Shown here piece after piece: positions 18,673 to 21,666 of a stretch of 64,000 nucleotides of DNA. The notes beneath the pieces were generated by a model, which made no database searches, had not been told where the DNA came from, and saw only the letters and a program-made list of their open reading frames with translations. The stretch's first letter is position 1, and the number at the start of each line of letters is the position of its first letter. The DNA is from Candidatus Iainarchaeum sp. (lineage in GTDB: Archaea; Iainarchaeota; Iainarchaeia; Iainarchaeales; GCA-2688035): positions 1,464 through 65,463 of the forward strand of contig JAQTNI010000001.1 of assembly GCA_028713935.1 (NCBI GenBank). Reading direction: 5' to 3'. A program made the position numbers and the translations under genes.

Positions 18673-21666
18673 TTATTGCACTGCCTGTTCCGCATTCATG
18701 GAATCCATTTGTTCCCTTAATTTTAATCCCACTACGCTGCTTTTCTGCTTGTTTAAAGCAACACCAATTATCTGGCTTGCATTCTGTATCAAAGGGTCGT
18801 TATGGGTTACAACAATAAACTGGGATTTTTTGCTCATTTCTTTTATCACATTCACCATTTTTGCTGAATTTTCCTTGTCAAGCGCCGCATCTGCCTCGTC
18901 AAAAATGTAAAAAGGAGAAGGCTCATAAAGCTGTATCGCAAAAAGGAACGCAAGCGCAGTAAGAGTTTTTTCCCCTCCGCTCATTGCATCAATATTTTTC
19001 ATTGACGCGCCTTTGTGCTTTGACTCAATCACTAATCCCGATTCCAATGGGTTTTCAGGGCTGCTGAGTGACAATTGCCCGAAGCCCCCGAACAATTCCA
19101 AAAACATTTTTGAAAAATTCCTGTTCAATTCGTTAAAGCAGTTCATGAAAAAAGTTGTCCTTTTCACTTCAATTTTCTGCATCAAATCCATTATTGCAAG
19201 CTTTTCCTCGTCAAGCTTTGCAAGCTTCTGCCTTACATCAATTACTTCCTGCTTCAATTCATTGAAAGAGTCAACTGCCTTCATGTTTATTGCGCCAAGC
19301 TCTGCAATCCTTTTTTCAATGTCAATTATGCGCTTCTGAAGCTGTTTTTCCTCCATATTGCTGATTTTTGGGACATTTGCATACTGTGCAAATTCCTCGC
19401 TTAAATCGGAAAGCCTGACTTCAAGCTTTGAATTGTCAATTTTTATTTCATTTGCCTGCTGCTCCAGCCTTTTGATTTTCTGCTGCAAAGAATTTTTTCT
19501 TTCAAAGGAAGCAGAAATTTTTTCGTCAATTCCGCTTTTTTCCTCAAAAAGCTTTTTGCTTTCCTTTTCTGATTTTTTCATTTCTTCCTGCAGGGAAACA
19601 ATTGTGTTGCCAAGCAGCCTTATGCTTTCAGCTGTTTTTTCAATGGCAGCTGACATTTCACTGTTTGCTTTTTTCAGCTGGGAAATTTCCTCTTCAACAA
19701 TTTTTTTTTCTTCGGAAGAGCGTTCCTTTCCCCTTTGAAACCCGCTTTTTTTTTGTTCAAGCAGCCCAAGCCTCAATTGAATGTCAGTAATGCTGTTTGC
19801 AAGGCTGGAAACTTTTTCAAAGCCAATTTCGGCCTTGAATTCCCTTGTTTCAATTTCTTTTTCCATTTTTTTTGCTTTTGCGGAAGAAAGAAGAGCCTCG
19901 AGTTTTTGTGCTTCCCTTTCCCTTTGTTCAAGTGAATCAGCGCAAAGCTCTTTTGCAATCCTGTCTTTTTTTGCGCTTAAAGAAGAAAATTTCTGCTTCA
20001 GCTCTGCAAGATTTGCTGTTTCAAATTCCAATTCCCTCATTATTTCAAAAATGCCTTCAAGCCTTGCTTTTTTTGCATCAAGCTTTTTTGCCTGCTCAGC
20101 AAAAATCCCTGATTGCACATTCAGGCCGTTAAGCAAATCCTGTTTTTTTTCAACAAGCATTTTCTTTTTTTCAATTGTCAGCCTGCTTTCGCAAACAGGG
20201 CAGGAAGCAGCCTGTTTCTGCAGTTCATTAATAGCGTTTTTTGCCTCGATTATCCTTGATTCGTTTGACTTTGAATCCACAATGCTTTTTTTTATTTCAT
20301 TTGAAACAATTTTCAGCTCTTCCTTTATGTCAGGGTGTTCCTGCATTAACTTGTCAAGGCTGTGCTTTTTTTCATCTTTCCTCGTGAACTCGCTTTTTGC
20401 CTTTTCAAGCTCTGCGCTTGTTTCCTGCAAGGCAAGCTTTTCAAATGCAATTTCCCTCTGCAAAGCTGAAATCTCGGCTTTTTTTTCAAACAAAATTTTC
20501 TGGGCTTTTGACTCTTCTTCAGCAAGCAAAACAAGCGCCCTGTCCATTTCCTTCAGAGCGCTTTCTTTTCCCATGCCTTTTTCTTCAAGCTCTTTTTTTC
20601 TCTGCCTTAACACATCAAGCTGCCTTTTGAGTTCAGGCAGCTCTTTTTCAATTGCGGCAAGCTCTTTTTCCCTGTTGTTTTGCTCATTCAGAAAAGCCTT
20701 TATTTTTTCTTCCAGATAAAAAATCCTTGAATTGTTTTTTTCCAGCAAACGCTTCTTGTTCTCGCTGTCCTGCACAGCAAGCATTTTCTCGGCTTTTTTT
20801 TCCTCTGTTTTTATTCCAAAATTTGCAAAAGCCTCTTTGCTGCCGGCAAGAATAAGCCTGTTTATTTCTTCTGAGCGCTCCTGCCATTGCCTTATTTTTG
20901 CATCCTCTTCTGAAAACTTTGCCTGCCAGGAATTCTGTTCTTCGCCAACACTAAAAACCTTGTCAGTGTTTTCCTTTCTCAATGCAGTGATTTTTTCTAT
21001 TTCAAGGTGCAATGCAGTTGCCTTTACCTGTTTTTTTTCATCCTGCAATTGCCCAAATTCCATTGCTGCCTGCCTGTCCCTTTCAAGGCTTTGCAGATAA
21101 TTTTCCCTTTCAGCCATTACTATTGCGGCTTCTTTTATGCGCATTTCAACCTTTTCAAGGTTTTTCAATGCCTCTGCTTTTTTTTCGTCAAACTCATGCA
21201 GGCCGGCAAGCTCATCGATTATCCGGCGCCTTTCTTCAGGAGTCATTTCAATCAGCCTTGTTGCATCTCCCTGCACAACAATATTATGCCCGCTTGGCCG
21301 GATTCCCAATTCTCCAAGAAGAGAGCTAATCTCATTCAAAGTTTTTCTCTGGTCATTAAGCCTGCAAATGCTTTTGCCCTGCTTGTCAATCATCCTGCTA
21401 ATGTCATATTTCTGGTCATTGTGTTTTATTGTCAAATCGACTTTTGCATAATTTTCCATTGCGCCATTATTGACAAGCTCTGACAATTTCGCCGCTCTTA
21501 ATGTTTTAAGCGAAGTAGCTCCCATTACAAACATCAATGCATCCAGAATGTTTGTTTTTCCGCAGCCATTGCCGCCCACAATTGCAGTGAAACCATCCGA
21601 AAAAGGGATTTCAGCTTTCTTAAAGCTCTTGAAATTCTTTAAAACAAGTTTTTGGAGTTTAACCAT
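18673..21666 (-). CDS. smc: SMC-family ATPase with SMC-type head and a central Rad50-like zinc hook in place of a hinge
   Basis: N-terminal [18 protein letters not shown], QGD...[11 protein letters not shown], and C-terminal [18 protein letters not shown]...[12 protein letters not shown]...QFIVVTH. The middle is all coiled-coil with [11 protein letters not shown]. Confidence 0.8.
   Translation of the reverse strand: [997 protein letters not shown]

What the first reader, a model, noticed from the sequence alone, without database searches (positions are those of the whole stretch)
18673..21666. SMC-head ATPase whose hinge is replaced by a Rad50-type CPVC zinc hook
Head motifs are unmistakably SMC, not Rad50: [55 protein letters not shown], and the C-terminal [18 protein letters not shown]...[37 protein letters not shown]...QFIVVTHND. 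At 1001 aa the protein is ~170 aa shorter than canonical SMC. Its centre (around nt 20191-20202) is uninterrupted coiled coil carrying [17 protein letters not shown], closely matching the Rad50 hook consensus CPVCxRxLTxE. No mre11, nurA or scpA lies beside it. The only neighbour is a 242-aa hypothetical gene upstream. This suggests a chromosome-organising SMC that dimerises through Zn2+ rather than a hinge.
Basis: partly seen in the sequence, partly recalled or inferred. Interest (0 to 1): 0.7.

Follow-up and report, generated by a model that had tools for sequence, protein, structure and literature searches.

The report
Natural SMC with a zinc hook
This DPANN archaeon's chromosome-organising SMC ATPase has kept its SMC heads and full-length arms but carries a Rad50-type zinc hook where the hinge should be, a natural version of a chimera so far known only from the laboratory.

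Summary
Window 18673-21666 (-) encodes a 997-aa protein, not 1001 aa. Its heads are SMC-type: 545.7 bits to NCBIfam archaeal SMC and 318.6 bits to the Pyrococcus Smc head, against at most 139 and 65 bits for Rad50. No hinge is detectable. One invariant CPxC sits at the midpoint (aa 489-492, nt 20191-20202).

The family is large, roughly 45 clusters at 50% identity, in Iainarchaeum/Diapherotrites MAGs. CPxC is present in 117 of the 120 closest homologues. A profile of the central 104 residues finds the crystallised P. furiosus Rad50 zinc hook as its best PDB match (E = 1.7e-9). AlphaFold gives two ~325-residue helical arms joined by a 15-residue apex, with no globular centre.

Head similarity and conserved gene order make it the positional orthologue of the hinge-bearing SMC of Micrarchaeota, and the alignment offset of 170-173 residues equals one hinge.

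Not shown: zinc binding, dimerisation, and the partner. No scpA, scpB, mre11, nurA or rad50 lies in the 64 kb, and the rest of the genome could not be searched.

The 242-aa neighbour is not conserved. A 262-aa membrane-protein gene is.

About ten related clusters have lost the hook as well.

I found no published description. I rate it a new variant of a known kind.

The parts
18673..21666 (-). Complete gene for the 997-aa hook-bearing SMC (stop codon 18673-18675). Identical to database protein P0001, named 'AAA family ATPase [Candidatus Iainarchaeum sp.]'.
21199..21666 (-). N-terminal half of the ABC ATPase head (aa 1-156). It holds Walker A G31-T38 (nt 21553-21576) and Q-loop Q132 (nt 21271-21273).
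   Evidence: Invariant columns. Best PDB matches are Smc heads. Strand and helix pattern.
20221..21198 (-). N-terminal coiled-coil arm (aa 157-482, about 326 residues, about 48 nm). It is collinear with the arm of the hinge-bearing Micrarchaeota SMC. Low-confidence 'joint' region at about aa 200-230. Helix breaks at aa 361-368 and 443-447.
20176..20220 (-). Apex, the zinc-hook loop (aa 483-497). CPVC lies at aa 489-492 (nt 20191-20202). Family motif: L-x-K-x-x-[AS]-x-C-P-[VTI]-C-[DE]-[SAT]-x-L.
19177..20175 (-). C-terminal coiled-coil arm (aa 498 to about 830). Its breaks at 614-617 and its low-confidence stretch at about 750-780 pair with those of the N arm (paired residue numbers sum to about 980). 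It holds the conserved joint motif NIExSKxEVRxxDLxEE (aa 739-758).
18676..19176 (-). C-terminal half of the head (aa about 831-997). It holds signature motif S896-GGEK-900 (nt 18967-18981), Walker B and D-loop F919-D930 (nt 18877-18912), and H-loop H955 (nt 18802-18804).
22579..23367 (-). 262-aa multi-pass membrane protein (weak Pfam GPDPase_memb). Its family lies immediately upstream of the SMC gene in 16 of 16 hook or hook-less loci, and is absent from all hinge-type loci. Whether it is functionally linked is unknown.

Best explanation
This is the organism's orthologous SMC (condensin-type) protein. In the Iainarchaeum/Diapherotrites lineage, its ~170-residue hinge was replaced by a short Rad50-type zinc hook. 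The SMC ATPase heads, the joint and the full-length ~48-nm arms were kept.

Inferred mechanism: two protomers are joined at the coiled-coil apex by one Zn2+ bound by the four cysteines of two CPxC motifs, as in Rad50. The heads engage and disengage with ATP as in Smc-ScpAB. The dimer therefore works as an ordinary chromosome-folding and segregation SMC, with a different constitutive dimerisation module.

Shown here: the architecture, the SMC identity of the heads, the sequence homology of the apex to the Rad50 hook, the conservation of the motif, and positional orthology to hinge-bearing SMCs.

Inferred only: Zn binding, dimerisation, loop extrusion or DNA entrapment, and the existence of a kleisin partner encoded elsewhere.
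For: Heads:
- NCBIfam SMC_prok_A scores 545.7 bits in two stretches. The C-terminal stretch, 498-983, aligns to model positions 674-1165. Rad50 models reach at most 139 bits and ASRP 98.5 bits.
- PDB matches: Pyrococcus Smc head 5xei 318.6 bits, B. subtilis 179, eukaryotic SMC1-4 at most 146, Rad50 at most 65.

No hinge:
- 0 of 49 members hit Pfam SMC_hinge.
- AlphaFold full-length model (pLDDT 79) has helices 157-482 and 498-~860 with a 15-residue apex.
- The centre-only model is a helical hairpin (pLDDT 91.5).

Hook:
- C489, P490 and C492 are invariant.
- CPxC is present in 117 of the 120 closest homologues.
- The profile of the central 104 residues has the P. furiosus Rad50 hook as its top two PDB hits: 1l8d E = 1.7e-9 and 6zff E = 5.4e-9. 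Human Rad50 hook 5gox gives E = 0.083.
- 22 of 49 members hit Pfam Rad50_zn_hook, best E = 3.7e-7. Some exceed the gathering score.

Orthology:
- In an NJ tree of heads, the family forms one clade next to hinge-bearing archaeal SMCs, including Micrarchaeota RLG21222.1.
- The same gene order is found in hook loci and in the hinge-bearing relatives' loci: L44e, SMC, Lon_C membrane protein, P1-L10-L1-L11-Spt5-SecE-FtsZ.
- BLASTP against the Micrarchaeota SMC aligns 1-364 to 1-362 and 706-984 to 876-1157. The arms are therefore equal in length, and the 170-173-residue offset is one hinge.

Arm length is tightly constrained: the hook sits at residue 487-491 in 107 of 116 members.

Feasibility: an engineered B. 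subtilis Smc with the P. furiosus Rad50 hook in place of the hinge supports function (PMC5344682; PMC7752040).
Against: - No kleisin was found. scpA lies directly downstream of smc in 47 hinge-type loci, but it is absent from all hook loci, from the 64-kb window and from the two hinge-bearing syntenic relatives.
- The rest of the genome could not be searched. A second, canonical SMC or a separate Rad50 in the same genome therefore cannot be excluded.
- About 10 orthologous clusters (905-949 aa) have neither hook nor hinge. Apex dimerisation by zinc is evidently dispensable in some relatives.
- Bootstrap support for the family clade in my NJ tree is modest (0.59), and no Rad50 outgroup was included.
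- The structure search of the hook model was non-specific.
- The protein scores below NCBIfam's SMC equivalog cut-off (545.7 against 729.4).
Confidence: 0.8

Rival explanations
1. It is an SMC-related paralogue with a hook, in the manner of ASRP/ClsN/Sph. It would act beside a canonical hinge-bearing Smc-ScpA encoded elsewhere in the genome, with a distinct role such as compartment formation or repair.
For: Archaeal SMC-related families with zinc hooks exist (PMC9389158). No scpA is near the gene. The rest of the genome was not searchable.
Against: - The NCBIfam ASRP score is 98.5 bits against a cut-off of 300, while SMC_prok_A scores 545.7.
- The protein has full-length SMC arms and a joint.
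- It occupies the same chromosomal position as the hinge-bearing SMC of Micrarchaeota and of P0143.
- None of the 11 Iainarchaeial MAGs in the species-genome scan yielded a second SMC hit among the 80 loci kept.
Confidence: 0.08
2. It is the lineage's Rad50 (DNA double-strand-break repair ATPase). Its head would have drifted towards, or recombined with, SMC, and it would work with Mre11.
For: The hook is statistically Rad50-like. A HerA-like ATPase gene lies 3.6 kb away, and HerA is linked to Mre11-Rad50 in other archaea (general knowledge).
Against: - Rad50 models score at most 139 bits against cut-offs of at least 700.
- Rad50 heads in the PDB score at most 65 bits, against 318.6 for the Smc head.
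- No Mre11 or NurA lies in 64 kb or in any related locus.
- The arms are collinear with SMC arms over their whole length.
- The HerA-like gene is a 1130-aa atypical DUF87 protein without NurA.
Confidence: 0.04
3. The central CPxC is not an intermolecular zinc hook. It could be a redox-sensitive or purely structural turn, with dimerisation (if any) by arm-arm contacts and heads only.
For: Orthologues lacking both hook and hinge exist and appear to be under selection. No metal or oligomer data exist. Foldseek could not discriminate the fold.
Against: - Homology to the crystallised Rad50 hook extends over about 97 positions.
- C, P and C are invariant, with a conserved flanking [DE]-[SAT]-x-L.
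- The motif sits exactly at the coiled-coil apex.
Confidence: 0.06
4. It belongs to an SMC-like anti-phage defence system (Lamassu LmuB, or MADS mad3 with mad8), not to chromosome maintenance.
For: PADLOC hits: mad3 180 bits and LmuB 81 bits for this protein, and mad8 and HerA for the nearby DUF87 ATPase. LmuB proteins often carry CPxCG hooks (PMC10586767).
Against: - These are generic head matches, far weaker than the SMC match (545.7 bits).
- The gene sits in a core, syntenic housekeeping block (FtsZ, SecE, Spt5, L11, L1, L10, L44e). The block is conserved across relatives whose SMC proteins are only about 35-40% identical.
- No effector, nuclease or methyltransferase partner is present.
Confidence: 0.02

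Closest known systems
Prokaryotic Smc of Smc-ScpAB (archaeal type, NCBIfam TIGR02169; Pyrococcus Smc structures 5xei, 4i99)
   Same: ABC head with all motifs, the joint, ~325-residue antiparallel arms collinear over their full length, and the same chromosomal position as the Micrarchaeota SMC.
   Different: There is no hinge domain. A 15-residue CPxC hook sits at the apex. No scpA or scpB is adjacent. The protein scores below the equivalog cut-off.
Rad50 zinc hook (P. furiosus 1L8D and 6ZFF; Pfam PF04423)
   Same: The central ~100 residues match at E = 1.7e-9. The CPVC motif is shared, with flanking L-x-K...L.
   Different: The heads are not Rad50-type, the arms are SMC arms, and there is no Mre11 partner gene.
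Engineered B. subtilis Smc(Zh) chimera (Smc hinge replaced by the P. furiosus Rad50 hook; PMC5344682)
   Same: The same architecture: SMC heads and arms with a Rad50 hook. In the laboratory the chimera supports Smc function if arm length is right. Here arm length is very tightly conserved.
   Different: This one arose naturally, is fixed in a whole archaeal lineage, and its in vivo function is untested.
Archaea-specific SMC-related proteins (ASRP: ClsN, Sph1/2; PMC9389158)
   Same: Archaeal coiled-coil ABC ATPases with a central zinc hook.
   Different: The NCBIfam ASRP profile is 593 positions long and this protein matches it at only 98.5 bits against a cut-off of 300. ASRP proteins are not orthologous to SMC.
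'Hinge-less' marine actinobacterial SMC variants (PMC12153180)
   Same: SMC heads and arms without a hinge.
   Different: Those are bacterial and explicitly lack the CxxC motif. They resemble the hook-less minority of this family rather than this protein.

Membership tests
SMC (prokaryotic Smc) | SMC-type ABC ATPase head (Walker A, Q-loop, signature LSGGEK, Walker B, D-loop, H-loop) closer to SMC than to other coiled-coil ABC ATPases | tested here: met
   SMC_prok_A 545.7 bits; Pyrococcus Smc head 318.6 bits against Rad50 at most 65; all motifs are invariant.
SMC (prokaryotic Smc) | Long intramolecular antiparallel coiled-coil arm of about 47-49 nm with a joint | tested here: met
   helices 157-482 and 498-~830; collinear with the Micrarchaeota SMC arms; matching discontinuities.
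SMC (prokaryotic Smc) | Hinge dimerisation domain (Pfam PF06470) | tested here: not met
   no hit in 49 of 49 members; there is no room in the model. Positive controls (hinge-type relatives) score 96-129 bits.
SMC (prokaryotic Smc) | Kleisin partner (ScpA), with or without kite (ScpB) | not testable with these tools
   Absent from the 64-kb window and from ±10 kb of all hook loci. The genome-wide search gave only Aenigmatarchaeota ScpA.
SMC (prokaryotic Smc) | Orthology to canonical SMC (phylogeny and gene position) | tested here: met
   The NJ clade has modest support (0.59). Shared synteny with hinge-bearing Micrarchaeota SMC and P0143.
NCBIfam TIGR02169 SMC_prok_A equivalog | Whole-protein score at or above 729.4 bits | tested here: not met
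   545.7 bits. The match is in two stretches and the C-terminal one resumes at model position 674.
Rad50 | Central CxxC zinc hook at the coiled-coil apex | tested here: met
   Zinc binding itself is not testable here.
Rad50 | Rad50-type head (NCBIfam Rad50 equivalogs) | tested here: not met
   at most 139 bits against cut-offs of 700-1087; at most 65 bits.
Rad50 | Mre11 nuclease partner, usually adjacent | tested here: not met
   No Metallophos/Mre11 or NurA in the window or in related loci. Genome-wide absence was not tested.
ASRP (ClsN/Sph) | NCBIfam NF045487 score at or above 300 bits | tested here: not met
   98.5 bits.
Lamassu LmuB / MADS mad3 (defence) | Specific profile match plus defence-island context with effector genes | tested here: not met
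   only generic head hits (mad3 180 bits, LmuB 81 bits). Housekeeping synteny.

The most novel reading that the evidence does not exclude
In one orthologous SMC lineage, nature has tried all three apex states: hinge (P0143), Rad50-type zinc hook (the majority) and nothing (about 10 clusters). The heads, joint, arm register and genomic position were kept throughout.

If these proteins are the sole SMCs of their genomes, hinge-specific activities such as hinge DNA binding or a hinge entry gate are not needed for core SMC function. Even covalent-like apex dimerisation would then be dispensable.

The complex may also use a non-ScpA partner. The strictly co-located 262-aa membrane protein is the only candidate seen.
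Probability: 0.3. Interest if true: 0.85.

Novelty: new variant of a known kind. Interest (0 to 1): 0.7.

Why it matters
Reviews define the two families partly by their apex: SMC proteins have hinges and kleisins, Rad50 proteins have zinc hooks and Mre11 (PMC10586767). Whether the hinge does more than dimerise (DNA binding, a DNA entry gate) is a long-standing question. The main evidence that it may be replaceable is an engineered B. subtilis Smc-hook chimera (PMC5344682).

A whole archaeal lineage that made the same swap naturally is independent evolutionary evidence on that question. It kept arm length fixed to within a few residues, it includes relatives that dropped the hook too, and one relative still has a hinge.

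It also supplies ready-made material for biochemistry and for comparative tests of arm-length tuning.

In practice these proteins are labelled 'AAA family ATPase' or fall below SMC family cut-offs. SMC surveys seeded on hinge alignments will miss them.

Tried and rejected
- **Structure search of the hook model.** Foldseek against the PDB was non-specific. There were no hits at E <= 0.001, generic helical hairpins came first, and 1l8d_A appeared only at rank 50 (TM 0.80). I do not use it as evidence.
- **Search for an Iainarchaeial ScpA.** I queried with a DPANN ScpA profile. All named hits among the 120 listed were Aenigmatarchaeota, so it says nothing about this lineage.
- **Homologue search with the 262-aa membrane protein**. 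It found only 3 proteins because of the word-index limit. A local jackhmmer on the fetched loci was what showed its conservation.
- **Literature.** Six searches found no description of a natural hook-bearing SMC and no inventory of ScpA or Rad50 in Diapherotrites.
- **The 242-aa upstream ORF as a kleisin or partner.** Rejected. It has no ScpA or other significant Pfam, NCBIfam or PADLOC match. It is absent from all other loci, including the 78%-identical relative.
- **Defence-system reading.** Rejected on context and scores.
- **Assembly artefact or chimera.** Rejected. More than 100 independent proteins from different projects share the architecture.
- **Degenerate hinge.** Rejected.
- **Tree building.** The first two attempts with Biopython timed out and were replaced by a numpy NJ implementation. 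I did not obtain a Rad50 outgroup or an ML tree.
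Full report
**What is there.** The minus strand carries one long ORF. It runs 18673..21678 from a GTG, or 18673..21666 from the ATG that matches the family consensus and the identical database entry P0001 (997 aa, 'AAA family ATPase [Candidatus Iainarchaeum sp.]'). The window is archaeal, with about 39% G+C and intron-containing tRNAs. It consists of housekeeping genes: FtsZ, Spt5, L1, L10, arginine and nucleotide-sugar enzymes, GMP synthase and others.

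**Heads.** Pfam places SMC_N across residues 4-975.
- NCBIfam's archaeal SMC model scores 545.7 bits in two stretches. The second stretch aligns residues 498-983 to model positions 674-1165.
- Rad50 models reach at most 139 bits and ASRP reaches 98.5 bits.
- Against PDB sequences, the Pyrococcus Smc head scores 318.6 bits, B. subtilis Smc 179, eukaryotic SMC1-4 at most 146, and Rad50 at most 65.
- Walker A, Q-loop, signature, Walker B/D-loop and H-loop residues are invariant in a 70-sequence family alignment.

The heads are therefore SMC, specifically archaeal SMC.

**Centre.**
- No SMC_hinge match exists in the protein or in any of 49 family members scanned. 22 of those 49 hit Pfam Rad50_zn_hook, best E = 3.7e-7. 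Some relatives exceed the gathering score.
- C489, P490 and C492 are the only invariant residues outside the heads and joint.
- CPxC is present in 117 of the 120 closest homologues.
- The motif is C-P-[VTI]-C-[DE]-[SAT]-x-L, and its position is 487-491 in 107 of 116 full-length members.
- A profile of the central 104 residues searched against all PDB sequences returns the P. furiosus Rad50 zinc-hook crystal structures as the two best hits: 1l8d E = 1.7e-9 and 6zff E = 5.4e-9. The human Rad50 hook 5gox scores E = 0.083.
- AlphaFold2 with the family alignment gives a head, two continuous helical arms (157-482 and 498-~860) and 15 non-helical residues at the apex (pLDDT 79). The centre alone folds as a confident helical hairpin (pLDDT 91.5).
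- Arm discontinuities pair up. Breaks at 361-368 and 614-617, and low-confidence stretches at ~200-230 and ~750-780, each sum to about 980, as expected for an antiparallel coiled coil with an SMC-type joint.
- A Foldseek search with the hairpin was non-specific. I do not count it.

**Is it an SMC that lost its hinge, or something else?**
- The exhaustive representative search lists about 45 family clusters first, then canonical hinge-bearing SMCs. The nearest named one is a Micrarchaeota SMC (P0146 = RLG21222.1).
- BLASTP of the window protein against it aligns 1-364 to 1-362 and 706-984 to 876-1157. The arms are equal in length, and the 170-173-residue offset is the hinge.
- In an NJ tree of head domains, the hook proteins and their hook-less relatives form one clade beside these hinge-bearing archaeal SMCs. 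Bootstrap support is only 0.59, and I had no Rad50 outgroup.
- Independent support comes from gene order. Hook loci share L44e, a 260-aa membrane protein, SMC, a Lon_C membrane protein, then P1-L10-L1-L11-Spt5-SecE-FtsZ.
- The Micrarchaeota hinge-SMC sits next to the same ribosomal/FtsZ block.
- A hinge-bearing protein (P0143, 1012 aa, Pfam SMC_hinge 96 bits) has a head 53-61% identical to the best-matching family heads. It sits between L44e and Lon_C exactly like the hook genes.
- I conclude that the gene is the positional orthologue of canonical smc, and that the apex module was exchanged in this lineage.

**Distribution.** The scan of one genome per species returned hook-type genes only from Iainarchaeum, Diapherotrites or unclassified 'archaeon' MAGs (L007-L016). 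Other architectures were seen:
- Aenigmatarchaeota have 807-840-aa mini-SMCs with a hinge, in smc-scpA-scpB operons.
- Woesearchaeota and Nanoarchaeota have canonical 1100-1164-aa forms.
- Within the family there are short hook versions (772-810 aa, hook at 376-395).
- About ten clusters (905-949 aa) have neither hook nor hinge. One of these (L017) lies in the same locus, so they are orthologues that lost the hook, probably more than once.

**Partners.**
- scpA lies directly downstream of smc in 47 of the fetched hinge-type loci. Ten ScpA/ScpB ORFs from six of these loci were confirmed by Pfam.
- No ScpA-like ORF occurs in any hook locus, in the 64-kb window, or in the two syntenic hinge-bearing relatives. 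Loss of adjacency therefore predates the swap and says little about loss of the kleisin.
- No Mre11, NurA, ScpB or second SMC/Rad50 is in the window.
- I could not search whole Iainarchaeial genomes. A profile search for ScpA returned only Aenigmatarchaeota.
It is absent from the 78%-identical relative, where the membrane-protein gene abuts smc.
- The 262-aa membrane protein (22579-23367) is immediately upstream of smc in 16 of 16 hook or hook-less loci and absent from all hinge-type loci. This may reflect function or merely lineage synteny.

**Mechanism.**
- Shown: an SMC head and arm scaffold with a Rad50-homologous CPxC apex, conserved and orthologous to smc.
- Inferred from the established Rad50 hook mechanism (two CxxC motifs from two chains bind one Zn2+) and from Smc-ScpAB biology: a zinc-bridged homodimer whose ATP-driven head cycle organises the chromosome.
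- Plausibility is backed by the functional engineered B. subtilis Smc(Zh) chimera, and by that study's finding that arm geometry, not the nature of the dimerisation domain, is critical (PMC5344682). The near-invariant hook position here fits that view.

**Known or new.**
- Reviews state the dichotomy: SMC has a hinge and a kleisin, Rad50 has a hook and Mre11.
- Hooks are known in Rad50, ASRP/ClsN/Sph and LmuB.
- Hinge-less, CxxC-less SMC variants were reported from marine Actinobacteria.
- Six full-text searches found no description of a natural SMC with a zinc hook. The library is incomplete, so prior mention elsewhere cannot be excluded.
- I rate it a new variant of a known kind, of clear interest to SMC specialists. 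The main open points are zinc binding, the partner, and whether it is the only SMC in the cell.

Noticed in passing
window 25265-28657 (+): A 1130-aa HerA-like ATPase (DUF87 + HerA_C). An intein is inserted in its P-loop (…GARGSGK|C…HN|S), and it has a K/E-rich N-terminal region and a ~350-aa C-terminal extension. Intein-less homologues (1008-1176 aa) lie a few kb from the SMC gene in related loci. No NurA is present. It may be a DNA translocase.
   Followed up: partly
window 22579-23367 (-); L002 9177-9956, L004 9140-9940, L005 9222-9992, L017 8931-9986 and others: A fast-evolving ~260-aa multi-pass membrane protein (weak GPDPase_memb/DUF7847). It is always immediately upstream of the hook or hook-less SMC gene (16 of 16 loci, gaps of a few to ~80 bp). 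It is never near hinge-type smc, including the syntenic relatives L087 and L088.
   Followed up: partly
L017 9983-12784; proteins P0109, P0125, P0126, P0131, P0135, P0137, P0140, P0142, P0144: Orthologues of 905-949 aa with SMC heads and arms but neither hinge nor CxxC. The apex region is variable coiled coil. L017 has the same locus synteny as the hook genes. They probably arose by more than one loss of the hook.
   Followed up: partly
L088 5188-8226 (protein P0143): A 1012-aa SMC with a genuine hinge (Pfam 96 bits). Its head is closest to the hook family (53-61% identity among its best matches), and it lies in the same L44e-SMC-Lon_C position. It either retains the ancestral state or regained a hinge. 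It is known from a single 11.5-kb contig.
   Followed up: partly
L019, L021, L022, L024, L025, L030, L034, L039: Aenigmatarchaeota and related MAGs encode 'mini' SMCs of 807-841 aa. They have a normal hinge but arms about 160 residues shorter per side. Where the downstream genes were checked, they sit in smc-scpA(-scpB) operons.
   Followed up: partly
L012 8231-12928, L028 4845-8921; proteins P0118, P0120 (archaeon GW2011_AR10), P0133: Several relatives carry a large intein with a homing-endonuclease domain, inserted right after the Walker A lysine of the SMC.
   Followed up: no
window 21793-22521 (-): A 242-aa ORF between the membrane-protein gene and smc. It is unique to this genome (also on Logan contig L001). 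Its only match is a weak sub-threshold DUF535 hit (E = 1e-3). It has a basic C-terminal tail. It looks like a recent insertion.
   Followed up: partly
window 23434-24083 (-) and 52280-53235 (+): Two small gene pairs that look like toxin-antitoxin modules. The first is a 99-aa + 117-aa overlapping pair next to tRNA-Ala, with no library hit. The second is a nucleotidyltransferase (NTP_transf_2) + HEPN pair.
   Followed up: no
window 33551-33711 (-) and 46109-46302 (+): Two tRNA genes with long introns (161 and 194 nt spans). Rfam finds them but ARAGORN's default scan does not.
   Followed up: no
proteins P0182 (1076 aa) and P0186 (1084 aa): A pair of SMC_N proteins that group near the family in the head tree. 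They have no hinge, no CPxC, and about 80 extra residues. The nature of their apex is unknown.
   Followed up: no
window 16291-18669 (+): A 792-aa membrane protein with a Lon_C protease domain and a long coiled-coil, K/E-rich C-terminus. It converges on the SMC gene with a 3-bp gap, and this pairing is conserved across the family.
   Followed up: no
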